Positions 24,647 through 52,471 are shown, numbered from the stretch's first letter. The stretch is DNA of 64,000 nucleotides from Hyphomicrobium sp. (GCA_041659545.1 JBAZYB010000001.1:119510-183509); one strand, 5' to 3'. Numbers and translations: made by a program. Notes: generated by a model not told the origin, from the letters alone.

Positions 24647-24655
24647 GGAGCGATC

Positions 24656-26310: not shown

Positions 26311-26326
26311 GGCCTAGAACAGTGGT

Positions 26327-27112: not shown

Positions 27113-27135
27113 GTGCTACACGCGTTCGTCCGTTT

Positions 27136-27750: not shown

Positions 27751-29237
27751 GTCCCCCCCGCCTCTCGGTGATGGATCTCCCGATCGACGCACCGGGCTCG
27801 TCGTTCCTTGACATGGCAGAAGCCTGCTCTGGGGAGCCGGAGTTTGTGTTCCTGGATGCGCAGGGAGACCACCCAGGGTGGGGAATGTCGATGTTCGCTT
27901 TCGCGCCAGTGGCCACCATCGTGGCGCGCAGCGATGAGACCACGGTCCGGAAGTGCGGGGTGGAGCGGCGGTCATCGCTGCCTGTTCTGGAGAGCATCGA
28001 AGAAGAATTGCGTCCTTACCGTCTGGACCTGCCAGATGGTCAAGCGCATCCCCACTTCGTCGGCGGCGCCGTCGGATACCTGGCATACGAACTCGGCCGC
28101 CAGTTGGAGGTGCTGCCATCCTCCGCGGTAAATGATCTCAGGTTGCCCACAGCCTATTTCAATATCTACAATTTTGCCGTTTGCTACGACCATCAGAGTG
28201 GTCGCTGCCGTTTGGCCTATGTTGACGGCTTTCCCTCTGACGCGCCCACGCGAGAAGCAATTCTGCGGCGCCTTGAATCGGCGTCGGCGACCCCGCGGGT
28301 TGCGGCAGCAGATTGGCGTGGACGGTTCGGAGCCATCACTTCCGACCTATCGAAGGCGGAGTATCTCGACGCGCTGAGTCGAATCAAGGAGTACATACGA
28401 AGCGGAGACGTGTACCAGGTGAACATGACCCAGCGTTTCCGGGCTCCACTGGGGATGTCTCCCTGGTCTCTCTGGAGGCGACTGGCTGCCATCAACCCCG
28501 CGCCCTTCGCGGCATATCTCAACCTGGATGAGCATTCAGTGATTTCGTCATCACCGGAGCTATTTCTCCGCGTTCGCGGCGACCGTGTGGAAACCAGGCC
28601 CATCAAGGGGACGATCCGTCGCAGCGCAGATTCCGTTGAAGACGCCATGTTCGCGCGTGAGCTGCTAGGCAGCGCGAAGAACAATGCCGAACTGGCGATG
28701 ATCGTCGATCTGATGAGGAATGATCTCGGCCGCGTGGCAATGCCGGGTACGGTCGAGGTCGAGGCTTGCCCAGTCCTGGAAACATACCCGTCGGTGCATC
28801 ACCTGGTCGCCACGGTGGCCGGCCGCCGCGATCCGTCCCTGTCGTTGTCAACGCTATTGCGCGCGACATTTCCGGGCGGCTCGATCACCGGTGCGCCGAA
28901 GATCCGCGCGATGGAGATCATCGACGAGCTTGAGCCCGTAGCACGCGGTGTATACACGGGCAGCATCGGGTATATCAGCTGCCACGGCACGATGGACCTC
29001 AACATCGCGATCCGGACGGTCATTGTGAAAGGGGACACGGCCTACTTTCACGCCGGCGGAGGCGTTGTCGCCGACTCCGAACCGGAACAGGAATATGAGG
29101 AACTGCTGCTCAAGGCGAGCCGTCTCGCGCAGGCCCTCACAGCCGACGGCCCGGTCGGGACGGAGAGCCCCTCCGGTCGTCTGCGCAGTGCCAGCGAAAG
29201 CCGAAACCCTTCCGCCATAACACAGAGGAGTAAGTGA
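27747..29237 (+). CDS. Chorismate-utilising enzyme component I (aminodeoxychorismate synthase PabB-like, or anthranilate/ADIC synthase)
   Basis: GDVYQVNMTQRF, SSSPELFLRV, FPGGSITGAPKIRAMEIIDELE and RGVYTGSIGY. ATGA overlap with the amidotransferase gene. Confidence 0.85.
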   Translation: MSPPRLSVMDLPIDAPGSSFLDMAEACSGEPEFVFLDAQGDHPGWGMSMFAFAPVATIVARSDETTVRKCGVERRSSLPVLESIEEELRPYRLDLPDGQAHPHFVGGAVGYLAYELGRQLEVLPSSAVNDLRLPTAYFNIYNFAVCYDHQSGRCRLAYVDGFPSDAPTREAILRRLESASATPRVAAADWRGRFGAITSDLSKAEYLDALSRIKEYIRSGDVYQVNMTQRFRAPLGMSPWSLWRRLAAINPAPFAAYLNLDEHSVISSSPELFLRVRGDRVETRPIKGTIRRSADSVEDAMFARELLGSAKNNAELAMIVDLMRNDLGRVAMPGTVEVEACPVLETYPSVHHLVATVAGRRDPSLSLSTLLRATFPGGSITGAPKIRAMEIIDELEPVARGVYTGSIGYISCHGTMDLNIAIRTVIVKGDTAYFHAGGGVVADSEPEQEYEELLLKASRLAQALTADGPVGTESPSGRLRSASESRNPSAITQRSK

Positions 29238-31198
29238 TGAAGAGTGTCGCGATCCTTGAGCTGGGCCTGATGGACCAGATGGTCCCGCTCGTCGGCGGCT
29301 ACCTCGAAGCGTATGCGAACCGCGACCCCTGGCTGCGCCAGTCCTATCGAATCGAAAAGCTCTGGGAGAGCGCGCGGGTCGACCAAGAACTGCTGCTGAA
29401 GCGCCTGGTGGACTGTGACGCCGATATCTACGCCCTCAGTTGCTATGTCTGGAACACCGGGTTGATCAAGGCGCTGCTGCCGCAACTACGAGCGCTCAAA
29501 CCGGAGGCCCAGTACATTCTTGGTGGGCCGCAGGTAATGGATCAAGCGCCGCGGATCCTGTTGCCGGAGACGGCAAACGTGACTATTTGCAATGGTGAGG
29601 GCGAAACCACCTTTGCCGACTATCTCAGGGAACTGACCGAGTCCAAGCCGGACCTGCACAAAGTGGGAGGCCTGAGTTTCATCGCCGACGGAACCGTTGT
29701 GACGACAGATAAACGGCAGCGGCTGACATCGATCGACGATATCCCGTCGCCGTTTCTGACGGGACTCTTCCGGGGGCAGTACCGCATGTCGATCCTGGAA
29801 ACCAACCGCGGTTGCCCGTTTCACTGCAGCTTCTGTTACTGGGGGGCCGCCACCAACGATCGGGTCTACAGCTTCGATCGGGATCGCGTGCGAGACGAGA
29901 TTGCTTGGATTGCCAAACAGGGGATTCCGTTCATGTTCCTGGCGGATGCCAATTGGGGCATGCGGACGCTGGACGTCGAGCAGACGCGGCACATCGCTGA
30001 GTGTCGGAAACAATACCTGTGCCCGCAGACCGTCTTTTACTCTGCGGCAAAGAACTCGCCAGACCGTGTCTGCGAAATCGTCGAGATTCTCGATAGTGCT
30101 GGAATTCTCGCGGCTCAACCGATTTCGCTGCAAACACAGGACGATCACACGCTGCAGGTCATCTCTCGAGAAAACATCAAGAAAGACGCCTATGCGCGAG
30201 TGCAAAAACGACTGGCGGAACGGCACATCAGCTCGTTCACTGAGGTGATCTGGCCCCTGCCGGGAGAGACGCTCACGACCTATACGACCGGAGTCGCCAG
30301 CGTTTGCCGAGCGGCCGGCCACACCAACACGATCATTTCGTATCCGCATCTCCTACTCGTCAACACACCCATGCATCGCCAACGCGAGGCGCTGGGATTG
30401 GTGACCAAGGGCATTGGCGACGGCCGCTGCGAGTCGGAACTCATCATCTCGACCGCCACAGCAAGCTACGATGACTACCTCGACGGGTTGCGCTTCTATT
30501 TCGCGACACTGCTCGCCTACAATTCACGTGGTCTGCGAAATCTCATGGCGTATCTGGACGCGGGTAACCGCGCCAGTTACGAAAGGGTGCTCTCGGAATT
30601 TGGCGAGTATTGCCGCGCCAACGTTGACCGTTCGCCGCTCTTCAGATACATAGAGGACGAGTCGATCGCAGGCCTGGAGGCGGCACGCTACAACAACTTC
30701 GGTGCTGTGATGCACTACGCGCTATGGCAACACCGCTCCGATTTCCAAGACCTATTGTGTGACTTCGTTGCCTCGCGATCCTATTGCGCCGACCGGGAAG
30801 CGCGGCTAGTGTTTGAGCTGGATCGCGTCCTGCTGCCCTTTATCTACAGCACCCCAACCCGCCAGAAATCCAATAGGCCGTTCGACTTGCTGTCCGTGAC
30901 CGCGAAGCCGGAGCGCAACATCAGCATCAGTGTACCTGAAGATCTGCGGGCCCTGGCCGCGACTATCCTCGCGCCTTACGGCGGAATAAATCAATCGACC
31001 GCGCGGTCCTACTCTATCGACCATGTGCGCCATCAGTTTCCCCATTGGCCGGCCAAGGGTATGCAGCAGAACGCCGACTATTGCTACGCCATGCTGTTGC
31101 GTATCGAGCGAATTACGCCCGTATGCTACGAGTCTGACAGTCCCGCCGCGGCACTCGGCGCGCGCACCGAAGAAAGCGCACTCGGGCGCATGCTGTGA
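29234..31198 (+). CDS. Cobalamin-binding-domain radical SAM enzyme (class B type), paralog 1
   Basis: N-terminal B12-like domain (VAILELGLMDQMVPLVGGYLEAY...DIYALSCYVWN...ILGGPQV) and the CX3CX2C cluster motif NRGCPFHCSFCYWG. 654 aa. Confidence 0.85.
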   Translation: MMKSVAILELGLMDQMVPLVGGYLEAYANRDPWLRQSYRIEKLWESARVDQELLLKRLVDCDADIYALSCYVWNTGLIKALLPQLRALKPEAQYILGGPQVMDQAPRILLPETANVTICNGEGETTFADYLRELTESKPDLHKVGGLSFIADGTVVTTDKRQRLTSIDDIPSPFLTGLFRGQYRMSILETNRGCPFHCSFCYWGAATNDRVYSFDRDRVRDEIAWIAKQGIPFMFLADANWGMRTLDVEQTRHIAECRKQYLCPQTVFYSAAKNSPDRVCEIVEILDSAGILAAQPISLQTQDDHTLQVISRENIKKDAYARVQKRLAERHISSFTEVIWPLPGETLTTYTTGVASVCRAAGHTNTIISYPHLLLVNTPMHRQREALGLVTKGIGDGRCESELIISTATASYDDYLDGLRFYFATLLAYNSRGLRNLMAYLDAGNRASYERVLSEFGEYCRANVDRSPLFRYIEDESIAGLEAARYNNFGAVMHYALWQHRSDFQDLLCDFVASRSYCADREARLVFELDRVLLPFIYSTPTRQKSNRPFDLLSVTAKPERNISISVPEDLRALAATILAPYGGINQSTARSYSIDHVRHQFPHWPAKGMQQNADYCYAMLLRIERITPVCYESDSPAAALGARTEESALGRML

Positions 31199-31205
31199 CG
31201 GGCGC

Positions 31206-32015
31206 ATGACCGTTTCGCACATGGCCCGTCTACGACATCGTTCGAAGTTCGCAGTCCTCACCGACGGCACTCGGTTGCACTACGTTGAGGCCGGCGCCGG
31301 GCCCACCTTGCTCATGGTGCCTGGTTGGATGGGGTCGGTCGAATACTGGACTGACCAGATCGAAGCGCTTGCCGCTAGCCACCGAGTGATCGCTTTGGAT
31401 CCGCGATCCCACGGCCGTTCCGAACAGACTGCCGACGGCAACTCGATCGCACAGCGGGGAGCGGATATCTGGAACCTAATCGAGAGGTTGGATCTGGCGC
31501 CGACTGGCATCGTCGCGTGGTCACTAGCTGTCGCCGATGTGCTGAGCATGGTCAAGGAGCGTGGGACCGGGCATGTTCGTCAACTTATTCTGGTCGATGG
31601 TCCCATCGTCAGTTGGACCCTTCAGCCGGAGATGTTGCAGCGGTGGATGCAGCAGCTGCGTGTGCTTCAACAGAACCGACCTCAGTTCGTGGAGGACTGG
31701 ACCAAGCGAATGTTCAAGCGACCGCCAGACCCCGTCAGGCTCGCACGGCTGGTCAAAGAGGCCATGAAAGTGCCGACCAATACCTCCCTGGCAATCCAGA
31801 TGGACTCCCTCGACTTCGACTACCGGGAAACGCTGCGCTCGCTCGACCGACCGACGATGTACATCGGACGCGGCGAGACGCCGGGAACGCAGTTCGACAT
31901 GTTCACACAGCTACTGCCAGAAGCACCAACCGTCGTGTTCCCCGGATGCGGACACGCGATGTTCATGGACGACCCGCGAAGATTCAACGAGCTTGTCCGC
32001 GAGTTTTGTTCCTGA
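31206..32015 (+). CDS. Alpha/beta hydrolase (Ser nucleophile)
   Basis: LHYVEAGAGPTLLMVPGW, nucleophile elbow VAWSLAV and FPGCGHAMFMDDP. Confidence 0.75.
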   Translation: MTVSHMARLRHRSKFAVLTDGTRLHYVEAGAGPTLLMVPGWMGSVEYWTDQIEALAASHRVIALDPRSHGRSEQTADGNSIAQRGADIWNLIERLDLAPTGIVAWSLAVADVLSMVKERGTGHVRQLILVDGPIVSWTLQPEMLQRWMQQLRVLQQNRPQFVEDWTKRMFKRPPDPVRLARLVKEAMKVPTNTSLAIQMDSLDFDYRETLRSLDRPTMYIGRGETPGTQFDMFTQLLPEAPTVVFPGCGHAMFMDDPRRFNELVREFCS

Positions 32016-32025
32016 AAGCGCAGTC

Positions 32026-32730
32026 GTGAAACGAATCGGCATTCTCGGCGGGTCAAGCGAGCACTCAACGGCAGATTACTACCGGCGTCTGAACGCGGCC
32101 ATCAACATGCGACTTGGCGGGCTAAATACCGCCGAACTGCTCATATCATCGATGAACTTCGCCCTGAGTGCGGACTGCGTGCATGAGAATCGATGGCGCG
32201 AACTCGGAGCGTACTTGGCTGAGAGAGCCAAGGCTCTCCAGCGCGCGGGTGCGGACCTGCTGATCTGTTCTTCGAATACCTTGCATCTCGTGGCCGACCA
32301 GTTCTGCGAGGGGTTACAGATGCCATTTCTACACATCGCCGATCCCACCGCGACTGCGATGGTCTCGGCCGGTGTGAGGCGGGCGGCTCTCCTCGGAACG
32401 TTGCCAGTCATGTCGACAGAGTCGTTCCCCCGTCGCTACGAGGCGCGCGGCGTCGAGATTATGGTGCCGCGGCCGGACGAGCAGGCGGTCATTCATCGGA
32501 TAATTTATGACGAGTTGTGTCTCGGATGCATTCGTGATGAGTCACGCCTGCGGTACCTCGAGATTGTCGATGCCCTTGTCTCGCGTGGGGCCACCGGGGT
32601 GGTGCTCGGCTGCACCGAGATTCCGTTGTTGCTACGACAAAGCGATCGGCCCAATGTCCTGATGTTCGACACTACGGGATTGCACGTCGATGCCGCTGCC
32701 GACGCCGCACTGAACCCTTCCGCAGAATAG
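32026..32730 (+). CDS. Aspartate/glutamate racemase family protein, YgeA/RacX-like
   Basis: IGILGGSSEHSTADYYRRLN, LLICSSNTLHLVAD and VLGCTEIPLL. From memory it is collinear with E. coli YgeA. GTG start. Confidence 0.75.
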   Translation: MKRIGILGGSSEHSTADYYRRLNAAINMRLGGLNTAELLISSMNFALSADCVHENRWRELGAYLAERAKALQRAGADLLICSSNTLHLVADQFCEGLQMPFLHIADPTATAMVSAGVRRAALLGTLPVMSTESFPRRYEARGVEIMVPRPDEQAVIHRIIYDELCLGCIRDESRLRYLEIVDALVSRGATGVVLGCTEIPLLLRQSDRPNVLMFDTTGLHVDAAADAALNPSAE

Positions 32731-32790
32731 TTGGATAGAACCGTTTCATCGTGTCGCGTTCTCGATCGGACCGCGTGCCGCCGGGAACAG

Positions 32791-33804
32791 ATGGTTATCG
32801 CGAGCGAGTGTTTTCGAAGCAATCTGGTCGGAGAGCCGTCGACGCGTACGGCTCAAGTGGTCTTGCCGGCGGACTACGACAGTTCGAGCGACAGGTATCC
32901 AGTTGTTGTTCTGCTTCACGGCTTCGGTCGGAACTCGGCTAGGTCGGGCCTGTGGTTTGGCGAAGGTTACGCCGCCGATCTGGACCTAACTGCTGTACTC
33001 GCCTCTGCAGTCGGACTAGGCAGAGCGCGGCCGATGATTCTTGTGTGTCCAGATGGCGGGACGTGGCTTGGTGGCGGGATGTGGCACGACTCACCGATTT
33101 CCGGCATGGCGGCGACGTTCGTCGCCGACGAACTGGTTCGCGAGGTCGACCGTCAGTTTAGAACAGTTGCTCTGCCAGCCTATCGAGGCATTGCTGGTCA
33201 CTCCATGGGAGGCCAGGGTGCGCTGCAAATTGTGATGAACCATCCCAAGGTGTTCGCCTCGGCGTACTCGCTTAACGCGATGATGTCGTTCAACGAGTCA
33301 CAGCTGCTCCGGTACTCGGACGCTTGGCGTCTGGCTTTGTCAGAGGGGCAGCGTTCGGAAGACTGGAGCGAAATGGCGTGCGCCTATCTCGCCATGTGCA
33401 TGGCGTTCTGCTGGACCGGTCGCCAGCCGATGTGTGGGGTCAAGTTTCCAATAGTCGATTCGCCGCGCGGACCCCGAGTCGAGCCCGCGGTCGCCGAGCG
33501 CTTCCTTTCACAGTGGCCATCGCAGACCTTCCAGACATCCAATGCGGCAGCAACTCTGCGCGGTTTACTCGGACTCGGTCTCGAAGTCGCCCTTGACGAC
33601 GAGTTCGACTGGGGTGTTGAGTCGAATCGCAGATTCATCCGTCAGTTGCAAGCCGCTGGCGTGCCGTATCAGTACACGGAAGCCGCCGGAAGCCACACGT
33701 CTGGGATCGCGGAGAGGCTTGAGAACCGGGTACTGCCCTTCTTCTCAACATGTTTCGCTAAGGCCGGGGCAGTGCGAGACGACCTGATAGAGAGCAGAGC
33801 ATGA
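32791..33804 (+). CDS. Esterase (putative esterase / esterase D-like family)
   Basis: YPVVVLLHGFGRN, GIAGHSMGGQGAL and a C-terminal GSHTSG. Start is ATG 32791 or TTG 32731. Confidence 0.7.
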   Translation: MVIASECFRSNLVGEPSTRTAQVVLPADYDSSSDRYPVVVLLHGFGRNSARSGLWFGEGYAADLDLTAVLASAVGLGRARPMILVCPDGGTWLGGGMWHDSPISGMAATFVADELVREVDRQFRTVALPAYRGIAGHSMGGQGALQIVMNHPKVFASAYSLNAMMSFNESQLLRYSDAWRLALSEGQRSEDWSEMACAYLAMCMAFCWTGRQPMCGVKFPIVDSPRGPRVEPAVAERFLSQWPSQTFQTSNAAATLRGLLGLGLEVALDDEFDWGVESNRRFIRQLQAAGVPYQYTEAAGSHTSGIAERLENRVLPFFSTCFAKAGAVRDDLIESRA

Positions 33805-34568
33805 ATCCAAAAGCAGCGGCGTGGGATCGGGTTGGCGGTGCCTTTTGGAGACTCGGGCGGCCCTCCGCCAAGCCGTCGCAAGCCGCAATCGATCTCTACC
33901 TCGCAGGTATGCGAACGAACGATCGCGTGTGCGTGGTAGGTGCAAGTACGAAGAGCGTTGTGGCCGCTGCCCTTGACCGGGGGCTCGAAGTATCAGTGAT
34001 CGACTTTTCCTCGGTCATGTGTGAGGACCTGGAGACGGAGATTCCGTCGGCGCGGCTGCGTTGTTACCATCGGGACATCCTCGCAGAGCCCGAGCCTTCG
34101 CTCCGAGGCCGTTTTGACCTGCTGATCGCGGACCGCCTAGTCAACCGAATGGAACGTGATGAGATTCCGCGTCTCTTCATCAACATGGCTGCGATGCTTC
34201 GGCCCGGCCGTGAACTGCGAGTTGGCGTCAAGATCGGTTTCTATCCATCAGATTCCTTGCTGATCGAGGAAGGACGGCGTGCAGGGACGCTGTCTCGTTT
34301 TTTTGACGAGCGCAATTCCACGATTGACTACTCAAAGGCTACCGACGAGCTGTCGCGGATTGCCTTGACCCATGGCGATATTCCTCGCGAGACCCTATTG
34401 GTCTGGTACGCCGGTCGTGGCCGGGAGAGTCGATTCGAGTTGGCCGACTTGTCCCGGGCCGTCGCGGTCGCGCAAACGTCTAGTTCAGGTTTGTCGTCAC
34501 ACTCAGTGCGTGACTTGCCGGATGCTGACTCAAGCGTCCTACTGACGCTGCGGTTGGCGGCAGCCTGA
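33801..34568 (+). CDS. Methyltransferase-fold protein with divergent SAM motif I
   Basis: Rossmann-like VCVVGASTKSVVAAALDRGLEVSVIDFS and FDLLIADRLVNRM. The Gly-rich motif I is degenerate. ATGA overlap upstream. Confidence 0.45.
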   Translation: MNPKAAAWDRVGGAFWRLGRPSAKPSQAAIDLYLAGMRTNDRVCVVGASTKSVVAAALDRGLEVSVIDFSSVMCEDLETEIPSARLRCYHRDILAEPEPSLRGRFDLLIADRLVNRMERDEIPRLFINMAAMLRPGRELRVGVKIGFYPSDSLLIEEGRRAGTLSRFFDERNSTIDYSKATDELSRIALTHGDIPRETLLVWYAGRGRESRFELADLSRAVAVAQTSSSGLSSHSVRDLPDADSSVLLTLRLAAA

Positions 34569-34578
34569 GTCCATCGGA

Positions 34579-36330: not shown

Positions 36331-36346
36331 CTAACGAGGTCGATGA

Positions 36347-37892: not shown

Positions 37893-37924
37893 CCGAGCGA
37901 TGCATTGGCTTAGACTGTCGGTAG

Positions 37925-38701: not shown

Positions 38702-38748
38702 CCGGCAGAACTCTCCTTCTTGCCTGACCTTCCGAGTCGGGAGCTGAC

Positions 38749-39015
38749 ATGTCTGAAGTAAGTCTCGAAGAGTTCGCGAGAGTCGTGCTCACGTTCGTCG
38801 CGAAACGGTCTGGCGCGGACATGGCTACGTTGCATTCCGACTCTGAGTACATCGCCAACGGGCTGCTCGACTCGCTTGGGACGATGGACCTGTTCCTGCT
38901 GGTGGAGGAGCACTTTGGAGTGAAATTCCGGCTCGAGGCATTTGATGTCCAGCAGGCGACGACCGCACGACGTCTCTACGCGCAGTACGTCAATGCGCAC
39001 CATCGACTTAATTAG
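38749..39015 (+). CDS. Acyl/peptidyl carrier protein 2
   Basis: 88 aa. YIANGLLDSLGTMDLFLLVEEHFGVKF contains the Ser attachment motif. It is a paralog of the C-terminal domain of 44000..45751. Confidence 0.75.
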   Translation: MSEVSLEEFARVVLTFVAKRSGADMATLHSDSEYIANGLLDSLGTMDLFLLVEEHFGVKFRLEAFDVQQATTARRLYAQYVNAHHRLN

Positions 39016-39034
39016 CGCGACCAAACCCACTTCT

Positions 39035-40951: not shown

Positions 40952-40983
40952 TAACGCCGGTCAAGTCGCCCAGGGAGTCTTCC

Positions 40984-45751: not shown

Positions 45752-47337
45752 ACGCCAATCGGCCGTCACACATTGCGGACGTCTATTTTCGGGTCGAGGC
45801 CGGATGTCCACCCTTGACAATGCCGCTCGACGCGGTCTTGAGAATGCGGGCTGAACGAACGGGGTCCGATCCGTTTCTCGAGTTTGGTAGGGCACCGCAC
45901 AAGGGACTGACAATTTCCTGGTCCGAACTCGACGAACGCGCTGACGCTGCCGCCGGTGTGTTTGCGATGAGGGGCATCTCAACCCATGATCGGGTCGGCG
46001 TCGTCCTCGAGGACACTCCGGAGTGCTTGGCAGCGATCATCGGGTTGTGGCGATTGCGTGCCGTTCTCGTTCCGATCGACCGTCGCTGGGGGACCCAAAC
46101 CACGCAAACGATCTGCGCCCATGCGGGCATGCGCGCGATTGTCGCCGCCGGGGATTTTATCGCCCGGCTGGGAGCTGACCTCGGGGATGCTCTCAGGATT
46201 GACGTCGAGGAGGTCGAAGGCCATCGCGGCGAGCGCCGACAACTGCTGAGCCGTCCAGAAGATGTCGCGATCATCGCGTATACCTCGGGAACGACGTCCA
46301 GCCCCAAAGGCGTCGTGATTCGGCATTCGCAACTGCGCTGGGCGTACAGCATTGCCCGACGTCACCTATTTGCCGGCGAACCGCCGCGCCGGTTCGGGAA
46401 TGTCTTCCGCATGGGTGGGCTTGGCGTTCTTGGTCTGAACTATTTGTTCCCGCTGGAGTGTGGTTCGGCGGTCGTAGCCTTGCCCGAGCTTTCTATCGAG
46501 ACCGCCGCGACGCTATGGCGAGATGTGGATGAAGCGCAGGTGGACTTTCTCTACCTGGTACCAACGCTGGTCCAGGTGGTCGTCCGGTTGTCACGGGCGG
46601 TATCGCCGTCAGCGCGAGTCGATTGCGTCACCGGTGCGGCGCCGATCTCGCCCGAGCTTCACGACTCCTTTCATAACCGCTTTGGCCATCGGCTGCGGAA
46701 TATTTACGGAATCAGCGAAGCCAGTTTTGGTGTGTTCTATGGCGCCTACGATGGAACGGATCGCGGTGCATGGCACTTGGGGAAGCCGGCGACGCCAATC
46801 ACGGTGCGTCTGCGCGCGCCGGACGGCGGTCTGATCGAAGGGCCAGGCGCAGGCGAACTCGAAGTGAATGGCCCAGTACTGTCAGACGGCTATTGGCGCA
46901 ACGAGGCCGCGACGCACGAGCGGTTTGTCGATGGATGGCTCCGGACTGGTGATGTCGCGGCCCGCGATGCTGAGGGCAACTACACGATTGTGGGACGTCT
47001 GAAAGACGTAGTTATCAGGGGGGGATTCAACATCCACCTGGACGAAGTTGATCAGACGCTGGCCAGCCATCCGCAGGTGCTCGGCGCCTGCGCCATCGGT
47101 ACCGATACCGCCGGCGTGGACGAGGGACTATCCGCTCTGGTCCATACCGCCGCCGGCGCGCCAGTGACTGCCGGCGACCTGGCTGACTGGTGCCGCCAGC
47201 GATTGGGACCAGCGAAGACGCCTTCGCCGATAATCCTGACTCACGATCCGCTGCCACAGAACAGTTCAGGGAAAGTGGTGCGCCGAGATGTTGCGGCGTT
47301 GGTGCGAGCCTTGTCCGCTCCAGGAAGGGGCTTCTAG
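45748..47337 (+). CDS. AMP-dependent (ANL superfamily) ligase 2
   Basis: IAYTSGTTSSPKGVVIRH, NIYGISEA, LRTGDVA and LPQNSSGKVVRRDV. ATGA overlap upstream. Confidence 0.85.
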   Translation: MNANRPSHIADVYFRVEAGCPPLTMPLDAVLRMRAERTGSDPFLEFGRAPHKGLTISWSELDERADAAAGVFAMRGISTHDRVGVVLEDTPECLAAIIGLWRLRAVLVPIDRRWGTQTTQTICAHAGMRAIVAAGDFIARLGADLGDALRIDVEEVEGHRGERRQLLSRPEDVAIIAYTSGTTSSPKGVVIRHSQLRWAYSIARRHLFAGEPPRRFGNVFRMGGLGVLGLNYLFPLECGSAVVALPELSIETAATLWRDVDEAQVDFLYLVPTLVQVVVRLSRAVSPSARVDCVTGAAPISPELHDSFHNRFGHRLRNIYGISEASFGVFYGAYDGTDRGAWHLGKPATPITVRLRAPDGGLIEGPGAGELEVNGPVLSDGYWRNEAATHERFVDGWLRTGDVAARDAEGNYTIVGRLKDVVIRGGFNIHLDEVDQTLASHPQVLGACAIGTDTAGVDEGLSALVHTAAGAPVTAGDLADWCRQRLGPAKTPSPIILTHDPLPQNSSGKVVRRDVAALVRALSAPGRGF

Positions 47338-48161
47338 TGTTCAACGAGAGTTTCCTGAGCAGCATTGCCGATCTCGCGTCACCACGGATGGGCACCGAGG
47401 GCATGGGACCCTTCCTGTACAGTCTCGTCCGCATGCTTCGCCCCCGGTCCGTCCTCGAGGTAGGTATCGGCTATTCGACTCCCTTCATCCTGAAGGCCCT
47501 GGATGACAACGTCAGCGAGATTGAGCGCGAACTTAACTTGGTGCCGGACAAGAACCGCCTGTTGTCTCCGGACGCTTTGTCTGGCACGGCGGTGACCGAT
47601 GCATTGAATTCCGTTGACAAGGCGACCAAGGTGCGATGGCTGGTCGCCGCGCCGCCACTGGCTGATCCGGCATTCTATGAGGCGCCCTATCGCCCCAGCC
47701 TGACCGCCATCGACGACCTGTCGAGTCCGCACGCCACGGCACGAAAGCTGAAGGACCGCGTCGAGTCTCTGCCCGGCGCCCAGTACCTGAACGTCGTCAA
47801 GGGGTCATTCCGCGGTCAAGGGGCCGCCATCGCCTCGGCCGCCGGCGGATTGGACTTCATGTGGTTCGATTGCGGTGGACACCGTGAATATCGGGACTTT
47901 CTCGATGAGTACTGGCCGTTGCTTGACGCGAACGGCGGCACCCTTCTTCTTCACTACACACTCACCAACCTCACCATCGGCAGCATCGTTAAAGATCTAA
48001 AGATCAAGCAAGCGACGACTGGATTCTCGGATTTCGAGCTATTGAGCCTTCGCGAACCCCACAAGATGATGCAGAACAGCGTCTCGGTTGTGCGCAAGAC
48101 CTCAGGGTTCCGCGACCGCATCTATTACGAGATCCGAGACGTCAGCCTCGAATCAGACTAG
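47337..48161 (+). CDS. Class I methyltransferase-fold protein (O-methyltransferase family 3 / Methyltransf_24-like)
   Basis: VLEVGIGYSTPFILKAL and FMWFDCGGHREYRDFLDEYWPLLDANGGTLLLHYT. GTG 47337 overlaps the upstream TAG by 1 nt. Confidence 0.6.
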   Translation: MFNESFLSSIADLASPRMGTEGMGPFLYSLVRMLRPRSVLEVGIGYSTPFILKALDDNVSEIERELNLVPDKNRLLSPDALSGTAVTDALNSVDKATKVRWLVAAPPLADPAFYEAPYRPSLTAIDDLSSPHATARKLKDRVESLPGAQYLNVVKGSFRGQGAAIASAAGGLDFMWFDCGGHREYRDFLDEYWPLLDANGGTLLLHYTLTNLTIGSIVKDLKIKQATTGFSDFELLSLREPHKMMQNSVSVVRKTSGFRDRIYYEIRDVSLESD

Positions 48162-48226
48162 TCCTCTCCGGCGGCTCGTCTTATCGCAATCGAGTCCACG
48201 CCCCGACAACAATTCAGAGGTGACCC

Positions 48227-50413
48227 GTGCGAGTGCAGCTGATGTACGCGCCTACCGCCGACCCCACGTGCCCGTGGGGCAGCCTGTATATGCTGAAGGG
48301 CTATCTCAACGATCGGACGGATCACGAGGTGACCGTGCGCGACCTGAACATCGAGTGGTTGCACTACATGTTCGAAGCGGGATCGCTGACGAGAGCGCAG
48401 GGGGTGATCGAGGGCCGCTTGGCTGAACTGGAGAACAAGTCCCGATTGGAGCCCATGGAGCAGTTTGCTTATACCAGGCTTCTGCAACCGATTGCGATGC
48501 CGACCGCTAGCGTTCTGGCTGAGGCGGTCTCCATCCTGCAATCCGGTGATCGATTCTACGACGTCGACGAGTATTTCGACGCGATGACGGCCCTGAAGCA
48601 ATGGGAAAGGGCAATGTCGCGAATCTCGTTCCCCGGAGTTTTCGACAAGTTCAGCCGCTACGGCATGGGGCCGTTTCTTAATCCGACCAGCGCCGCGGAC
48701 ATCGTTTGCGCCACCTCGGATGCCCAGTTGGGTTTCTTCTCATCCTTCCTGGACGAGCGAGTGCTTCCCGGTATGTCAAAGGTGCCGCCGGATGTGGTCG
48801 GGATCTCGATACCTTTCCGATTCCAGCTCTGGCACGCGGTTGCTCTTGCTCGAGCATTGCGTGCTCGGTTTCCCGCGACCAAGTTGGTTGTCGGTGGCAC
48901 TGCCCTGCAACTACAGAAGTATGCGCAACTGCACGGTCGTCACGACGGCCTCTACGAGTTTTTCAAGCTGTTCGACGCCGTGGTGGTTGGTGAGGGCGAA
49001 GAACCGCTTTGCGAACTGCTGGCGCTTTGGGAGCGAGGCGGCACTGTGAGCCGCGCGCTCCCGCAGGCAGGAAAGGGCGCGACGACCACAATGCCGAACG
49101 TGCTAGTAGTCGATCCTCATCGACCGATCGTCTATGCGCCACCGTCATTCAGATATCACGACCTGAACGCCTTGTCGGTGCCTGACTATTCAGACGTGAG
49201 ATGGGATCTCTATCTGTCGCCGGAACCGGTCCTCACTTACTCACCGACGCGGGGATGCTACTGGGACCGATGCACATTCTGCGAGATTGGCCTGGCCACC
49301 GATCGCCCGACTGCTCCTTCTCGCGAACGAACCCCGGACCGCGTGATCGAAGACCTAAAGGTCCTGCGCAAGATCGGCCGCCACATCTACTGGTCGGTCG
49401 ATGCCATTCGACCCGCTTGGCTGGTCCAGGTCTCGAGAGGCATCGCGGCCGCAGGGCTGGACGTCCTATGGGGAGCCGAAGTGCGACTTGACCGGATGTA
49501 TACCGACGAGGAGGTGGCGGTGCTCAAGAAGGGCGGATGCCTTGCCATCTCTGTTGGCCTGGAGACAGGCTCGAATCGCCTGCTTAAGCTGATGGATAAG
49601 GGGACGACGACCGAGCGCTACGGTACAACGCTAGCGCGCCTGCGGTCGGCGGGAATCGGTGTATATCCGATGACATTCATCGGCTTCCCAACCGAGACCA
49701 TTGACGAGGCCAATCAGACGATCGATTTCCTCGAACAGCACGCGGACGAACTGGCGATGCTCGCGATGCCCGCCACCTTCTACCTCGAAGGGAACGCGAT
49801 CATCACACAGAAGCCGGAACAGTACTCGCTGAGGCGCCTGGAGCGGTTCAAGAACCTCGACGCTCCTAATGGCTGGTACTGGGAGGGACCCGAGCGATGG
49901 CCGATTGGGGAGCAACGACAGCTCATGGCTCGACTCGTCGAGACATCGACACAGATCATGGGTCTGTTGGATCGGCCATTCCTCGGCGGGGTCGACACTC
50001 CTCACAGTGCCTTATATCTGGAACGCCACGGTCTGACTGCGATCAAGACGGCTTCGGCCCGGTTCAAGAGCCGTGTCAAGGAACGGCCAGCACTCGCCTC
50101 ACGGAACCGCGTAGCGTCGCCGTTCGATCTCGAGGAGATTCGAGCAAATGTGTGGCGCCTGATCGACTTACTCGAAGAGGAGTATCGAGAGGGGCTGTGC
50201 GCGAGCGGGGAAATCACCGTGCCGCTGTTGGCATCCCTGCCGAGTGTTGCACGCCAGCAGGTGCGATACCAGGACCTCGATGCTGACATTCAAACGCCTC
50301 TCGATCAGTGGCTGGACATCAACTTCTCCCGCGACCGGTCCCGTGATGAGCCGATGTACACGCAGTATCGACCCGCCGCGCACAGTGGCGCGGAGGTAGT
50401 CCGCTCCAGCTGA
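48227..50413 (+). CDS. Cobalamin-binding-domain radical SAM enzyme of a different subtype, with a CX4CX2C cysteine motif
   Basis: 728 aa. B12-like region DVVGISIPFRFQLWHAVALARALRARFPATKLVVGGTAL. The cluster motif TRGCYWDRCTFCEIG was read directly from nt 49249-49293. GTG start. Confidence 0.8.
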   Translation: MRVQLMYAPTADPTCPWGSLYMLKGYLNDRTDHEVTVRDLNIEWLHYMFEAGSLTRAQGVIEGRLAELENKSRLEPMEQFAYTRLLQPIAMPTASVLAEAVSILQSGDRFYDVDEYFDAMTALKQWERAMSRISFPGVFDKFSRYGMGPFLNPTSAADIVCATSDAQLGFFSSFLDERVLPGMSKVPPDVVGISIPFRFQLWHAVALARALRARFPATKLVVGGTALQLQKYAQLHGRHDGLYEFFKLFDAVVVGEGEEPLCELLALWERGGTVSRALPQAGKGATTTMPNVLVVDPHRPIVYAPPSFRYHDLNALSVPDYSDVRWDLYLSPEPVLTYSPTRGCYWDRCTFCEIGLATDRPTAPSRERTPDRVIEDLKVLRKIGRHIYWSVDAIRPAWLVQVSRGIAAAGLDVLWGAEVRLDRMYTDEEVAVLKKGGCLAISVGLETGSNRLLKLMDKGTTTERYGTTLARLRSAGIGVYPMTFIGFPTETIDEANQTIDFLEQHADELAMLAMPATFYLEGNAIITQKPEQYSLRRLERFKNLDAPNGWYWEGPERWPIGEQRQLMARLVETSTQIMGLLDRPFLGGVDTPHSALYLERHGLTAIKTASARFKSRVKERPALASRNRVASPFDLEEIRANVWRLIDLLEEEYREGLCASGEITVPLLASLPSVARQQVRYQDLDADIQTPLDQWLDINFSRDRSRDEPMYTQYRPAAHSGAEVVRSS

Positions 50414-50472
50414 TTCGCCGCAGTGGCCAGACCGCTGCCGTCTATTTCAACTCCGCGACTATAAGGTGACGC

Positions 50473-52437
50473 ATGACTGCACAGAAGAGACACGTCGCTC
50501 TGTTCGAGTTCTCCGTGTGGGATAGGATGGTGCCCCTCGTAAGCGGCTTGCTGGAGGCTGGTGCGTGCGCCCGGCCGGAATTGCGAGACAGCTACCGGTT
50601 CTCGAAGTACAGCACCAGCACCGGCGCCGCTGCCATTGATCGCGTCATCGACGTCGAGGCCGACGTCTATGCTTTCTCTTGCTACGTCTGGAACACCGGA
50701 TTGGTGCGACGGATTCTTCCGGCGGTGTTGGAGCAACGGCCGCACGCAAGGATTTTGCTGGGTGGTCCGCAAGTAATGAACAAGGCCGCCTCGTATCTGC
50801 CAAAGGATTGCGAGAGAACCGCCGTGTGCAATGGGGAGGGCGAGATTACGTTCTCGAACTACCTTGCCGAACTCCTGAATGAAGAACCAGACCTTGGTCG
50901 GGTCAATGGACTGAGTTTCTACCGGGATGGGACTCTCATCGACACACCCAAGCAGGATCGAATCGCGGACCTAGACAGCTATCCGTCTCCTTACCTTGCG
51001 GGCTGCTTCACCGGCCAGCGGTTCGTCTATGGCGTCATCGAGACGAATCGTGGTTGCCCCTTTAAGTGCACTTATTGTTACTGGGGTGCTTCGACTAACA
51101 GCAAGGTACGGAAGCAGTCCGAAGACCGCGTGTTTCAGGAACTTGAGTGGCTGAGCCAGCAGAAAACACACATGATCCTCATCGCCGACGCCAACTTTGG
51201 CATGTTGAAGCGTGATCAGGACATTGCCGCCCATATCGTCGCTTGTAAGTCGAAGTACGGGTTTCCGATGACCGTCTCGTTCAGCGCGTCGAAGAATACT
51301 CCAGACAAGAACGCGGAGTTGGTCAAGGTCCTGGCGGATTCCGGTCTCTTGAGCACACTACCGATTGCCATTCAGTCGACCAATCCGGAGGTGCTCAAGA
51401 ACGTCGATCGCAGCAATATTTCTTCCGCGGGGTACATTCAGCTGCAGAACGCCGTCAATGAACGTGGGCAGAGCTCCTATGTCGAGCTGATCTGGCCGTT
51501 GCCAGGCGAAACCCTTTCCTCCTTCCGCGCCGGAATCGAAGACTTGTTCCGCCAGGGCGCGAGTACTTTCAATGCCCATCCGCTGATGCTCATCAACAAT
51601 GTTGAGATGGACGACCATCGTGAGCGCTTCGGCTTGGTCACCGTGCCGGACCAGGATCCGAACAGCGAGGCGAGTCTCGTCGTGTCCACCGCGTCGGTGT
51701 CTGCCGGTGAGTACCTCGATGGCCTGCGGTACATGTGCCATGTGACGGCCTTGCTCAGCTGTCGCGGGCTGGCGCATTCGGCGAAGTGGCTCGACCAGCG
51801 GCAGCAACTCTCGTTGGGGCAACTGTTCGCTCGGTTTGACGACTTCTGCCTTGCCCGGCCGGATCATCCCTACACGGCGCACGTCGGCACTGCGACATCG
51901 GGTGACGGCGCCTACAGTTTCGCCATGCTGGGGTCGGTCTTCCATCTCACCTGTGGCGCGTTGATTCGAGAGTTCGACCAATTGCTTCATGAGTTCGTGC
52001 AGACTCTAGAGCAGTGGTCTGATCCTCGACTGCGCGCACTTTTTGCTCTTGACCTATTGAATCGGCCGTACGCGTACCGGAACACACGAATCGTCGAACG
52101 GGGCGGCCTGCTTCAGGGATTCAATTGCCGCCCTCTCGCAAAGAATGACCGGGCGCAGGTCGAAGTGCCTCCAGCCTATGTCGCACTCATTGCGGAGGCT
52201 TTGGGCGTGCCGGAGGCTGGAAGGTGCGCTGTTTACGAGGTGTCTTACAAGTCCGAGCAGTATCCGTATGTGGCCGGCAAGAAGGAGCTCGACTACCACA
52301 CCTATTGCACTGGGATGCTGTTACGTATGAACGCCGTGGCAGCCCGCTGGACACCCTTGGGGCAATCCCGCGAGTTCTCAATTTCGAGCGATGTCAGCCG
52401 AATCGGCGTCCCCTCCGAATCGGCGGTCACTGAATAG
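50473..52437 (+). CDS. Cobalamin-binding-domain radical SAM enzyme, paralog 3
   Basis: VALFEFSVWDRMVPLVSGLLEAG, DVYAFSCYVWN and NRGCPFKCTYCYWG. 654 aa. Confidence 0.85.
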   Translation: MTAQKRHVALFEFSVWDRMVPLVSGLLEAGACARPELRDSYRFSKYSTSTGAAAIDRVIDVEADVYAFSCYVWNTGLVRRILPAVLEQRPHARILLGGPQVMNKAASYLPKDCERTAVCNGEGEITFSNYLAELLNEEPDLGRVNGLSFYRDGTLIDTPKQDRIADLDSYPSPYLAGCFTGQRFVYGVIETNRGCPFKCTYCYWGASTNSKVRKQSEDRVFQELEWLSQQKTHMILIADANFGMLKRDQDIAAHIVACKSKYGFPMTVSFSASKNTPDKNAELVKVLADSGLLSTLPIAIQSTNPEVLKNVDRSNISSAGYIQLQNAVNERGQSSYVELIWPLPGETLSSFRAGIEDLFRQGASTFNAHPLMLINNVEMDDHRERFGLVTVPDQDPNSEASLVVSTASVSAGEYLDGLRYMCHVTALLSCRGLAHSAKWLDQRQQLSLGQLFARFDDFCLARPDHPYTAHVGTATSGDGAYSFAMLGSVFHLTCGALIREFDQLLHEFVQTLEQWSDPRLRALFALDLLNRPYAYRNTRIVERGGLLQGFNCRPLAKNDRAQVEVPPAYVALIAEALGVPEAGRCAVYEVSYKSEQYPYVAGKKELDYHTYCTGMLLRMNAVAARWTPLGQSREFSISSDVSRIGVPSESAVTE

Positions 52438-52471
52438 GGCCTCCGGCCGTTTCCCAGCGAAGTGAGTCGCC

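What the first reader, a model, noticed from the sequence alone, without database searches (positions are those of the whole stretch)
29234..52437. Three paralogous ~640-654 aa cobalamin-type radical SAM enzymes in one operon
Genes 29234..31198, 39035..40951 and 50473..52437 share three features:
- the same architecture
- the same N-terminal signature: (V)A(I/L)(L/F)E(L/F)..(W/M)D(R/Q)MVPLV.G.LEA and D(I/V)YA.SCYVWNTG
- near-identical cluster motifs: NRGCPF(H/K)C(S/T)(F/Y)CYWG

Paralogs 2 and 3 are clearly closer to each other than to paralog 1 (by eye). That suggests a recent duplication on top of an older one.

In known systems, multiple class B rSAM paralogs in one cluster perform successive or regiospecific methylations at unactivated carbons. 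Examples from memory are bottromycin BotRMT1-3, polytheonamide PoyB/PoyC, and iterative CysS, TokK and ThnK. Three copies imply several distinct C-H functionalisations on one scaffold.
Basis: partly seen in the sequence, partly recalled or inferred. Interest (0 to 1): 0.75.

Follow-up and report, generated by a model that had tools for sequence, protein, structure and literature searches.

The report
Three CysS-type B12 radical SAM methylases
One long gene cluster from an uncultured bacterium encodes three related vitamin-B12-dependent radical enzymes of the kind that builds branched alkoxy groups on the antibiotic cystobactamid, so it is a solid genome-mining lead but not a new kind of enzyme.

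Summary
Three + strand genes (29234-31198, 39035-40951, 50473-52437; called r1, r2, r3 here) encode 654, 638 and 654 aa paralogs, and all three quoted motifs are present. The paralogs align end to end with the solved iterative methylase CysS (PDB 9n1b; E 2e-178 for r3, 2e-139 for r1). An AlphaFold model of r1, the most divergent copy, superposes on CysS with TM 0.90. The [4Fe-4S] CX3CX2C motif and the Trp that sits under the cobalt are conserved, so the class B (cobalamin) call is right.

Three corrections:
- r2/r3 (55% identical) is not a recent duplication. Each has its own orthologs (61-63%) in other metagenomes.
- r1 (36-38% to r2/r3) belongs to a separate lineage. It is no closer to r2/r3 than to CysS.
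- A fourth, unrelated class B enzyme lies at 48227-50413.

Most CysS substrate-contact residues are replaced, in a pattern specific to each lineage.

The setting is a 38-kb co-directional run. It carries PABA synthesis genes, stand-alone adenylating enzymes, two free carrier proteins (one 19 nt before r2), methyltransferases and Fe/2OG oxygenases, but no NRPS.

Most likely these are three non-redundant methylases acting on carrier-bound intermediates. Substrates and product are unknown.

The parts
29234..31198 (+). r1: CysS-type cobalamin-dependent radical SAM enzyme, 654 aa; CX3CX2C at C194/C198/C201; Trp73 is the residue equivalent to the Trp under the cobalt
   Evidence: PDB CysS 9n1b E 1.6e-139 over residues 4-638. 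AF2 model pLDDT 91.2, TM 0.90/0.94 to 9n1b. Motif positions. Start overlaps the PabB stop by 4 nt.
39035..40951 (+). r2: CysS-type cobalamin-dependent radical SAM enzyme, 638 aa; CX3CX2C starting at C193
   Evidence: Orthologs P0006 (92%) and P0004/P0005 (62-63%); clade bootstrap 100.
50473..52437 (+). r3: CysS-type cobalamin-dependent radical SAM enzyme, 654 aa; CX3CX2C starting at C195
   Evidence: CysS 9n1b E 2e-178 over residues 6-629. Orthologs P0001 (92%) and P0002/P0003 (63%); clade bootstrap 99.
48227..50413 (+). Fourth class B radical SAM enzyme (728 aa) of an unrelated subfamily, with an N-terminal extension of about 170 aa
   Evidence: Pfam Radical_SAM 58.8 bits, B12-binding 29.5 bits. 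Best NCBIfam hits are rSAM_ocin_1 at 85 bits and PhpK at 74 bits, both far below cut-off. No significant similarity to r3. A 73% ortholog sits next to the r3 ortholog in L011.
38749..39015 (+). Free-standing carrier protein CP2 (88 aa, GLLDSLG motif), 19 nt upstream of r2
   Evidence: PP-binding 20.8 bits, equal to the cut-off. Sequence. The CP2-r2 adjacency is conserved in L012 and L013.
24656..24958 (+). Free-standing carrier protein CP1 (100 aa, VDSL motif), 9 nt downstream of an adenylating enzyme
   Evidence: PP-binding 32.1 bits. Sequence.
27136..29237 (+). PabA (glutamine amidotransferase, 27136-27750) and PabB (aminodeoxychorismate synthase component I, 27747-29237), immediately upstream of r1
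   Evidence: GATase 185 bits; Chorismate_bind 304 bits. TIGR00553 pabB 365.9 bits, above its 328.4 cut-off. 47% and 39% identical to the fused PabAB of the cystobactamid cluster.
22387..23241 (+). Class IV aminotransferase-fold protein, a candidate aminodeoxychorismate lyase (PabC)
   Evidence: Aminotran_4 187 bits. NCBIfam is ambiguous between branched-chain aminotransferase and ADC lyase, all below cut-off.
23075..24646 (+). Stand-alone adenylating enzyme A (AMP-binding); the true start is probably near 23240
45748..47337 (+). Stand-alone adenylating enzyme B (AMP-binding)
   Evidence: A 57% ortholog in L011 is preceded by a carrier-protein gene.
37925..38701 (+). SAM methyltransferase MT4, upstream of CP2-r2
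   Evidence: Methyltransf_11/25 at 67 bits. The order MT4-CP2-r2-TauD is conserved in L012.
40918..42024 (+). TauD-family Fe/2OG oxygenase immediately downstream of r2
   Evidence: TauD 97.8 bits. PDB 7n7v 'predicted hydroxylase' 4e-41, FrbJ 4e-29, asparagine oxygenase 6e-6.
26327..27112 (+). SAM methyltransferase MT1; its best matches are O-methyltransferases
   Evidence: NCBIfam phthiotriol/phenolphthiotriol dimycocerosates methyltransferase 106 bits and fatty-acid O-methyltransferase 104 bits, both below cut-off.
47337..48161 (+). 274-aa protein with a weak class I methyltransferase signal, lying between adenylating enzyme B and the fourth rSAM
   Evidence: Methyltransf_24 E 0.0026, below cut-off. 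PDB family-3 O-methyltransferases only at E 0.19-0.75, not significant. A 63% ortholog occupies the same position in L011.
56153..57004 (+). DAHP synthase, likely a dedicated supply of shikimate-pathway precursor
   Evidence: DAHP_synth_1 244 bits. NF006421 409 bits, above its 335 cut-off.
14914..53323 (+). Co-directional run of 33 genes (MacB-type exporter to alpha/beta hydrolase) that contains all four rSAM genes. No NRPS condensation domain or PKS ketosynthase domain was detected.
   Evidence: Pfam scans. Junctions are all 80 nt or less and 17 of 32 overlap.

Best explanation
r1, r2 and r3 are three non-redundant cobalamin-dependent radical SAM methylases with the CysS/TokK three-domain design: an N-terminal Rossmann-type cobalamin domain, a radical SAM barrel with a CX3CX2C [4Fe-4S] site, and a C-terminal helical domain.

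By analogy with CysS, each would consume two SAM per turnover. One SAM methylates cob(I)alamin. The other is cleaved to a 5'-deoxyadenosyl radical, which abstracts H from an unactivated carbon; the substrate radical then takes the methyl group from methylcobalamin.

I infer that each enzyme acts on a different intermediate of one pathway, and that these intermediates carry a pantetheine arm or are bound to a carrier protein. The pathway uses stand-alone adenylating enzymes and free carrier proteins instead of an NRPS and includes p-aminobenzoate.

The most likely target carbons are O-methyl groups installed by the neighbouring SAM methyltransferases, after hydroxylation by the Fe/2OG oxygenases. 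Methylation would extend them to ethoxy or branched alkoxy groups.

What is shown: fold, cofactor motifs, family placement, gene context, and conservation of the trio in one other sample. What is inferred: methyl transfer itself, carrier-bound substrates, alkoxy targets, and whether methylation is iterative.
For: Family and fold:
- Full-length matches to solved CysS: E 2.5e-222 with a profile of the three paralogs, 2e-178 for r3, 1.6e-139 for r1. TokK is next at 8e-61 and 2e-59.
- The AF2 model of r1 (pLDDT 91.2) superposes on 9n1b at TM 0.90/0.94, rmsd 2.5 A over 635 columns.
- The CX3CX2C motif is present in all three.
- The Trp under the cobalt (CysS W75, TokK W76) and W206 are invariant in 123 of 123 family members, r1-r3 included (residue roles from PMC12846815).

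Non-redundancy:
- One other sample (SRR12030760) holds orthologs of all three, at 57%, 61% and 62% identity, on contigs L014, L012 and L011.
- The r2 and r3 clades each have fixed, different residues at CysS substrate-contact positions: position 188 is C vs Y, 371 is F vs H/Y, 607 is N vs D, 617 is V/I vs L.

Carrier-bound substrates:
- Both solved relatives were crystallised with pantetheinylated substrates.
- The carrier protein CP2 lies 19 nt upstream of r2, and this adjacency is conserved in L012 and L013.
- A second carrier protein follows adenylating enzyme A.

PABA link:
- PabA-PabB-r1 overlap each other by 4 nt.
- PabB scores above its NCBIfam cut-off and a DAHP synthase is present.
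- CysS S273, which H-bonds the aromatic amine of the substrate, is kept as Ser in all three.

Methoxy supply:
- Four SAM methyltransferases, plus a fifth weak candidate, and two Fe/2OG oxygenases are in the run.
- The order MT4-CP2-r2-TauD is conserved in L012.
Against: - No activity data exist for any member of the r1, r2 or r3 clades.
- Most CysS substrate-contact residues are replaced: F17 to M/W/W, W188 to M/C/Y, the gate residue W271 to F/S/S, H617 to L/V/L. The substrate is therefore not the CysS substrate, and the Trp271 gating proposed for CysS cannot operate in the same way.
- The window has no homolog of CysC (the PaaA-like PABA hydroxylase), of the O-methyltransferases CysF and CysQ, or of CysR (AurF) from the cystobactamid cluster. 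No aromatic hydroxylase was identified.
- The r1-PabB adjacency is not conserved. In L014 the r1 ortholog sits between the aldehyde dehydrogenase and the aldo-keto reductase.
- The class IV aminotransferase is not clearly a PabC.
- Cobalamin-dependent radical SAM enzymes also catalyse ring contraction, ring formation and thioether formation (abstract of PMC13331322).
Confidence: 0.6

Rival explanations
1. The three enzymes are methylases but build alkyl branches on aliphatic or ring carbons, as TokK and ThnK build the C6 ethyl or isopropyl chain of carbapenems. They would not extend O-methyl groups and need not act on the PABA unit at all.
For: - TokK is the second-closest solved relative.
- Most CysS residues that contact the aminobenzoate are replaced.
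- No aromatic hydroxylase or CysF-type O-methyltransferase was found.
- The cluster carries amino-acid-type tailoring genes: Asp/Glu racemase, an asparagine-synthase-like enzyme, an isopropylmalate-synthase-like enzyme and a TauD oxygenase.
Against: - All three align with CysS over the whole length, including the C-terminal domain. TokK aligns only to about residue 460.
- Ser273 is kept in all three.
- Four to five SAM methyltransferases and two oxygenases could supply methoxy groups, and MT1's best matches are O-methyltransferases.
- No crotonase-type carbapenam synthase was seen in the Pfam scans.
Confidence: 0.25
2. At least one paralog, most plausibly r1, uses the same fold for non-methylating radical chemistry such as C-S or C-C bond formation or a rearrangement. 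A paralog set inside one cluster would then have diverged in reaction type.
For: - Reaction diversity is documented for cobalamin-dependent radical SAM enzymes (abstract of PMC13331322).
- r1 belongs to a different lineage from r2/r3 and from CysS.
- The two His residues proposed to position SAM for cobalamin methylation in CysS (H371, H617) are Y and L in r1.
- From my own memory, not checked here: ThnL in the thienamycin cluster is a paralog of the methylase ThnK and forms a thioether.
Against: - H371 and H617 vary across the whole family: position 371 is Y in 94 of 123 sequences, and position 617 is H in only 47 of 123. Their loss is therefore not diagnostic.
- The Trp under the cobalt and W206 are kept in all three paralogs.
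- The characterised enzymes named in this report within the full-length CysS-type group (CysS from two species) are methylases.
Confidence: 0.12
3. The paralogs are functionally redundant copies, or one is a decaying copy, so the trio says nothing about the number of modifications.
For: Tandem pairs of CysS-like genes occur in other clusters (L001, and L007/L008). Gene amplification is therefore common in this family.
Against: - All three are intact full-length ORFs with the cluster motif and the cofactor residues.
- Identities between them are only 36-55%.
- Each lineage has its own fixed pocket residues.
- Orthologs of all three persist in a sample whose copies have diverged to 57-62% identity.
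Confidence: 0.03

Closest known systems
CysS, the iterative cobalamin-dependent radical SAM methylase of cystobactamid biosynthesis (Cystobacter sp. Cbv34; structure of the Corallococcus homolog, PDB 9n1b/c/d; PMC12846815)
   Same: - Same three-domain architecture over the full length.
- 38%, 43% and 45% identity for r1, r2 and r3.
- CX3CX2C motif, the Trp under the cobalt, W206 and S273 are all conserved.
- The r1 model superposes at TM 0.90.
- Both clusters also encode PABA synthase.
   Different: - Most substrate-contact residues differ, including the gate residue Trp271 (F/S/S in r1/r2/r3) and W188, H617 and F17.
- Cystobactamid uses one CysS on an NRPS assembly line. Here there are three paralogs plus a fourth B12 enzyme, free carrier proteins, stand-alone adenylating enzymes and no NRPS.
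- No homologs of CysC, CysF, CysQ, CysR or CysB, and no pentapeptide-repeat resistance gene.
TokK (and ThnK), carbapenem C6 alkyl-chain methylases (PDB 7kdx/7kdy)
   Same: - Same cobalamin and radical SAM domains, and the same Trp under the cobalt.
- Sequential methylations on a pantetheinylated substrate.
- E 2e-59 to 8e-61; TM 0.78.
   Different: - Only about 24% identity in the structural alignment.
- The sequence match stops near residue 400-460, so the C-terminal domain differs.
- No carbapenam core genes are detected in the window.
NCBIfam NF033712, KedN5 family methylcobalamin-dependent radical SAM C-methyltransferase
   Same: It is the best-scoring curated family for all three paralogs, at 290-313 bits.
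   Different: The scores are far below the 700-bit cut-off. CysS itself scores only 286-292 bits. The model therefore defines a narrower clade to which neither CysS nor r1-r3 belongs.
Uncharacterised metagenomic clusters with two tandem CysS-like genes (L007/L008 from a farmland metagenome; L001 from an Acidobacteriota MAG)
   Same: More than one CysS-type paralog sits in one locus. L007 also carries a class IV aminotransferase-fold gene.
   Different: L007 is an NRPS cluster. Its two copies are both of the r1 type (46-48% to r1) and adjacent to each other. In the window the three copies come from two lineages and are dispersed over 23 kb, each with different neighbours.

Membership tests
Class B (cobalamin-dependent) radical SAM enzymes | CX3CX2C motif for the SAM-cleaving [4Fe-4S] cluster within a radical SAM core | tested here: met
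   CPFHCSFC at residue 194 (r1), CPFKCTFC at 193 (r2), CPFKCTYC at 195 (r3). Pfam Radical_SAM 34-57 bits, above the 29.5 cut-off.
Class B (cobalamin-dependent) radical SAM enzymes | N-terminal Rossmann-type cobalamin-binding domain | tested here: met
   Pfam B12-binding 27.8-31.7 bits, just under the 32.1 cut-off. The sequences align with the CysS cobalamin domain from residue 4-8 onward. The AF2 model of r1 has alternating strands and helices in residues 3-157 and superposes on 9n1b at TM 0.90.
Class B (cobalamin-dependent) radical SAM enzymes | Actual binding of cobalamin and of an iron-sulfur cluster | not testable with these tools
   Requires purified protein (UV-vis spectra, iron and cobalamin quantification).
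CysS/TokK-type three-domain methylases | Bulky hydrophobic residue (Trp75 in CysS, Trp76 in TokK) under the cobalt, keeping it five-coordinate | tested here: met
   The Trp of the CYVWNTG motif is invariant in 123 of 123 aligned family members, r1-r3 included.
CysS/TokK-type three-domain methylases | Full-length CysS-type architecture, including the C-terminal helical domain that closes the substrate channel | tested here: met
   r1 residues 4-638 align to chain residues 8-632, and r3 residues 6-629 to chain residues 7-629. Foldseek aligns 635 columns.
CysS/TokK-type three-domain methylases | Methyl transfer from methylcobalamin to a substrate carbon radical | not testable with these tools
   Requires an enzyme assay.
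CysS proper (same substrate as the cystobactamid enzyme) | The substrate-contact set F17, W188, F238, W271, L272, S273, H371, F485, D607, H617, which is nearly fixed in the CysS clade (7 of the 8 sequences checked carry the full set) | tested here: not met
   In that order: r1 has M, M, F, F, Y, S, Y, Y, Q, L; r2 has W, C, V, S, F, S, F, F, N, V; r3 has W, Y, L, S, F, S, H, F, D, L. r1 keeps F238 and S273, r2 keeps S273 and F485, and r3 keeps S273, H371, F485 and D607.
NCBIfam NF033712 KedN5 family | Whole-protein score of at least 700 bits | tested here: not met
   312.7, 290.6 and 289.5 bits. CysS scores 286-292 bits.
Cystobactamid/albicidin-type gene cluster | NRPS assembly line with PABA-activating modules | tested here: not met
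   No Condensation domain and no multidomain NRPS was found in the ORFs scanned, which cover nearly all ORFs of 180 aa or more outside overlaps. The longest ORF is 799 aa, a MacB permease.
Cystobactamid/albicidin-type gene cluster | Dedicated PABA synthesis genes | tested here: met
   PabA and PabB are present and PabB scores above the TIGR00553 cut-off. They are 47% and 39% identical to the fused PabAB in L015. The PabC assignment is inconclusive.
Cystobactamid/albicidin-type gene cluster | Tailoring set CysC (PaaA-like hydroxylase), CysF and CysQ O-methyltransferases, CysR (AurF), and a pentapeptide-repeat resistance protein | tested here: not met
   tblastn of all window proteins against the C. 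ferrugineus tailoring region at E 1e-3 hits only PabA, PabB and CysS.

The most novel reading that the evidence does not exclude
The cluster makes a PABA-containing metabolite without an NRPS, on free carrier proteins. Three specialised CysS-type enzymes each elaborate a different carbon.

For at least one of them, the CP2-r2-TauD-MT4 module, the target would be an aliphatic O-methyl group: TauD hydroxylates a carrier-bound residue, MT4 methylates the hydroxyl, and r2 extends the methoxy. That would extend CysS chemistry from aryl methyl ethers to a new substrate class.

It would also mean the enzyme works without the Trp271 gate that is proposed to switch CysS between cobalamin methylation and substrate methylation.
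Probability: 0.2. Interest if true: 0.65.

Novelty: new member of a known kind. Interest (0 to 1): 0.45.

Why it matters
[quoted passage not shown] Few members of the family have been characterised.

A cluster that keeps three diverged copies, each with its own pocket, plus a fourth B12 enzyme, is a compact natural experiment. It could show how substrate choice and the number of methylations are encoded in this fold.

It also points to an unknown, probably heavily C-methylated, PABA-related product from an uncultured bacterium.

In the r2/r3 lineage the Trp271 'gate' of CysS is replaced by Ser. This offers a direct test of how general that gating model is.

The finding is a good mining and enzymology lead. 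It does not challenge current understanding.

Tried and rejected
- Source organism. The genome-contig scan found no close genome; the best match is 53% identity, in an Acidobacteriota MAG. The exact proteins occur only on Logan contigs from SRR18595301, and the database lists a 213-kb JGI contig that could not be retrieved. Taxonomy stays unresolved.
- Phosphonate pathway. I considered this because of weak hits: FrbJ for the TauD protein, PhpK for the fourth rSAM, PhnY* for the PhyH protein, and an isopropylmalate/homocitrate-synthase-like gene. I rejected it because no PEP mutase domain turned up in any ORF scanned.
- Carbapenem-type (ThnK/L/P-like) cluster. I considered this because of TokK similarity and an asparagine-synthase-like gene. 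I rejected it because no crotonase-type gene is present and the paralogs match CysS over their full length, not TokK.
- Candidate hydroxylase or O-methyltransferase. PDB sequence searches with the unknown 354-aa and 274-aa proteins gave nothing significant.
- ccCysS contig. The exact contig was not on record, so I used the C. ferrugineus cluster instead.
- Literature. A search for 'KedN5' returned no papers, and none of the three paper searches run turned up a cluster with three CysS homologs.
- RNA elements. Rfam at gathering thresholds and the tRNA scan found nothing in the window, so no cobalamin riboswitch was detected.
- Operon structure. The promoter and terminator consensus scans were uninformative, with counts equal to shuffled sequence.
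- Failed calls. The first MAFFT run timed out, and two scan calls failed on a range limit.

Full report
**Observation**

I call the three genes r1 (29234-31198), r2 (39035-40951) and r3 (50473-52437). All three ORFs exist on the + strand at the stated coordinates and translate to proteins of 654, 638 and 654 aa.

- The r2 ORF can be opened at a TTG at 38942. The ATG at 39035 is the better start, because an 88-aa gene fills 38749-39015 and a 92%-identical ortholog is also 638 aa.
- Pairwise BLASTP gives 55% identity for r2/r3, 39% for r1/r2 and 37% for r1/r3, with E-values from 2e-141 to 0.

**What the proteins are**

- Pfam finds Radical_SAM above its cut-off and B12-binding just below it.
- The best curated NCBIfam model is the KedN5 family of methylcobalamin-dependent C-methyltransferases, at 290-313 bits against a 700-bit cut-off. 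CysS itself scores only 286-292 bits on that model. The model therefore marks a narrower clade, and the sub-threshold score does not count against a CysS-like function.
- Against solved structures, a profile of the three paralogs hits CysS from Corallococcus (9n1b) at E 2.5e-222 over the whole length. TokK follows at 2.6e-86, and OxsB is distant. Individually, r3 gives 2e-178 and r1 gives 1.6e-139.
- I modelled r1, the most divergent copy, from a 54-sequence alignment. Mean pLDDT is 91.2 and pTM 0.90. Foldseek returns the three CysS entries first (TM 0.90/0.94, rmsd 2.5 A, 635 columns), then TokK at TM 0.78.

**Reading the motifs against the CysS structure paper (PMC12846815)**

I mapped the paper's numbering onto the native sequence: paper number = native number + 3, and all 12 named residues match at that offset.

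It is invariant in 123 of 123 aligned family members, as is W206.
- The CX3CX2C motif is intact in all three.
- The residues that contact the pantetheinylated 3-methoxy-4-aminobenzoate in CysS are mostly replaced. In the order r1/r2/r3:
  - F17 becomes M/W/W
  - W188 becomes M/C/Y
  - F238 becomes F/V/L
  - the gate residue W271 becomes F/S/S
  - L272 becomes Y/F/F
  - H371 becomes Y/F/H
  - D607 becomes Q/N/D
  - H617 becomes L/V/L
  - S273, which binds the aromatic amine, stays Ser in all three
- In the CysS clade this set is nearly fixed: seven of the eight sequences checked carry the full set. The r2 clade and the r3 clade each have their own conserved set. The r1 clade is more variable.

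These are relatives of CysS with different pockets, not additional copies of CysS.

**Evolution**

I built a neighbour-joining tree from 238 sequences and 432 columns, with a TokK fragment as outgroup and 100 bootstraps.

- r2 groups with P0006, P0004, P0005 and P0007 (bootstrap 100).
- r3 groups with P0001, P0002 and P0003 (bootstrap 99).
- The two groups together have bootstrap 100.
- Orthologs in other samples are 61-63% identical, more than the 55% between r2 and r3. The duplication is therefore older than the split between the organisms that carry the cluster, and it is not recent.
- r1 groups with P0122 and P0123 (bootstrap 100) inside a different assemblage of about 120 members, with 63% support.
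- r1 is 36-38% identical to r2/r3 and 38% to CysS. r2/r3 are 43-45% identical to CysS. r1 is best described as a separately recruited lineage of the same family.

Deep nodes in this tree are weak and should be re-examined with maximum likelihood.

A search of 1.84 billion cluster representatives puts the whole r2/r3 clade under a single 50%-identity representative. Roughly 60-70 of the listed representatives match over most or all of the length, and 1117 hits in total have E of 1e-30 or better.

**Context**

From 14914 to 53323 there are 33 + strand genes. Every junction is 80 nt or less and 17 of the 32 overlap. Pfam and NCBIfam scans give the following.

- Transport: a MacB-type permease.
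- Redox: an aldehyde dehydrogenase and an aldo-keto reductase.
- A split PEP-synthase/PigC-like enzyme (PPDK_N and PEP-utilizers domains on separate genes).
- A class IV aminotransferase-fold protein, a possible ADC lyase.
- Adenylating enzyme A followed by a 100-aa carrier protein (CP1).
- PabA-PabB-r1, overlapping each other by 4 nt.
- Several alpha/beta hydrolases.
- An Asp/Glu racemase and an asparagine-synthase-like protein.
- Four SAM methyltransferases.
- A PhyH oxygenase.
- An 88-aa carrier protein (CP2) 19 nt before r2, followed by a TauD oxygenase.
- An isopropylmalate-synthase-like protein.
- Adenylating enzyme B.
- A 274-aa protein with a weak methyltransferase signal.
- A fourth class B radical SAM enzyme, followed by r3.

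ABC transporter genes and a DAHP synthase lie just downstream. No condensation or ketosynthase domain was found in the ORFs scanned.

**Related loci**

- Sample SRR12030760 has contigs with orthologs of all three paralogs:
  - L014: ALDH - r1 ortholog (57%) - AKR - PPDK_N.
  - L012: AsnS - PhyH - P450 - MT4 - CP2 - r2 ortholog (61%) - TauD.
  - L011: carrier protein - adenylating enzyme B - unknown 274 - fourth rSAM (73%) - r3 ortholog (62%) - hydrolase - MacB ... CP1 - PEP-utilizers - unknown 354.
- L013, from a further sample, also has CP2 followed by an r2 ortholog.
- The trio, the CP2-r2 pair and the pairing of the fourth rSAM with r3 are therefore conserved features of a small cluster family. 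The r1-PabB adjacency is not conserved.
- Tandem CysS-like pairs also occur elsewhere: in an Acidobacteriota MAG (L001) and inside an NRPS cluster from farmland soil (L007/L008).
- A direct comparison with the cystobactamid tailoring region of Cystobacter ferrugineus (L015) shows that only PabA/PabB and CysS are shared.

**Mechanism**

The best-supported reading is three non-redundant CysS-type methylases using the two-SAM ping-pong mechanism described for CysS.

I infer pantetheine-bearing or carrier-bound substrates for three reasons. Both solved relatives bind pantetheinylated substrates. A carrier-protein gene is conserved immediately upstream of r2. The cluster loads acids with stand-alone adenylating enzymes.

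I favour O-methyl groups as targets, made by the neighbouring oxygenases and methyltransferases, with PABA as one building block. This step is inference only, and no aromatic hydroxylase was identified.

Rival readings are listed with their probabilities: alkyl-chain building of the TokK type, a non-methylating paralog, and redundancy.

**Verdict**

The class B assignment is confirmed and sharpened to the CysS type. The duplication history is corrected, and a fourth B12 enzyme and two carrier proteins are added.

These are new members of a known enzyme kind in an uncharacterised, NRPS-free cluster from an uncultured bacterium. The finding is a useful lead of moderate interest.

Noticed in passing
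window 48227-50413 (+): A fourth cobalamin-type radical SAM enzyme (728 aa) with an N-terminal extension of about 170 aa, unrelated to r1-r3 beyond the radical SAM core. Its best family hits are the RiPP C-methyltransferase model (85 bits) and the PhpK P-methyltransferase model (74 bits), both far below cut-off. Its best PDB match is AprD4 (2e-7). A 73% ortholog sits next to the r3 ortholog in L011.
   Followed up: partly
window 24656-24958 and 38749-39015 (+): Two small free-standing carrier proteins (PP-binding, with VDSL and LDSL serine motifs). One follows adenylating enzyme A. The other lies 19 nt before r2, and that pairing is conserved in L012 and L013.
   Followed up: yes
window 21542-22390, 24948-25274, 25246-26310 (+): A PEP-synthase/rifampicin-phosphotransferase/PigC-RedH-like enzyme appears to be split into separate genes: an ATP-binding PPDK_N domain, the swivelling PEP-utilizers domain, and an unannotated 354-aa protein that may be the substrate-binding domain. 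The order PEP-utilizers then unknown-354 recurs in L011.
   Followed up: partly
window 831-1412, 10001-12647: The cluster lies next to mobile DNA. There is a phage-integrase-family ORF of only 193 aa (it may be a fragment), an IS66-family transposase inside a 70% GC island (the rest of the window is about 58-62% GC), and an ORF that carries only the C-terminal domain of alanine racemase.
   Followed up: partly
window 53285-53965 (-): A minus-strand P-loop protein with a weak thymidylate-kinase match (35 bits) breaks the otherwise co-directional gene run. It lies between the hydrolase after r3 and the ABC transporter genes.
   Followed up: no
P0195 (homolog from a Logan metagenome contig): A CysS-like protein with a PP-binding-like domain fused at its C-terminus. 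The usual LGGxSL serine is a tryptophan (LGGEWL), so the domain may not be able to carry a phosphopantetheine arm.
   Followed up: no
L007 7954-13499 (and L008), farmland metagenome ERZ1761208: An NRPS cluster: a 5022-aa NRPS, then two tandem r1-type CysS-like genes, then a fused class IV aminotransferase-SnoaL protein, then a C-A-T-TE module. It looks like an uncharacterised cystobactamid/albicidin-like assembly line with two CysS paralogs.
   Followed up: no
window 1-64000: No Rfam family reached its gathering score anywhere in the window and no tRNA genes were found. So no cobalamin riboswitch was detected near four B12-dependent enzyme genes.
   Followed up: yes
window 50420-50438 (+): A terminator-like hairpin (7 pairs, 5 of them G-C) with a weak T tail lies in the 59-nt gap between the fourth rSAM gene and r3. 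It is the only such site in an intergenic gap flanking one of the three paralogs, but overall counts are no higher than in shuffled sequence.
   Followed up: no
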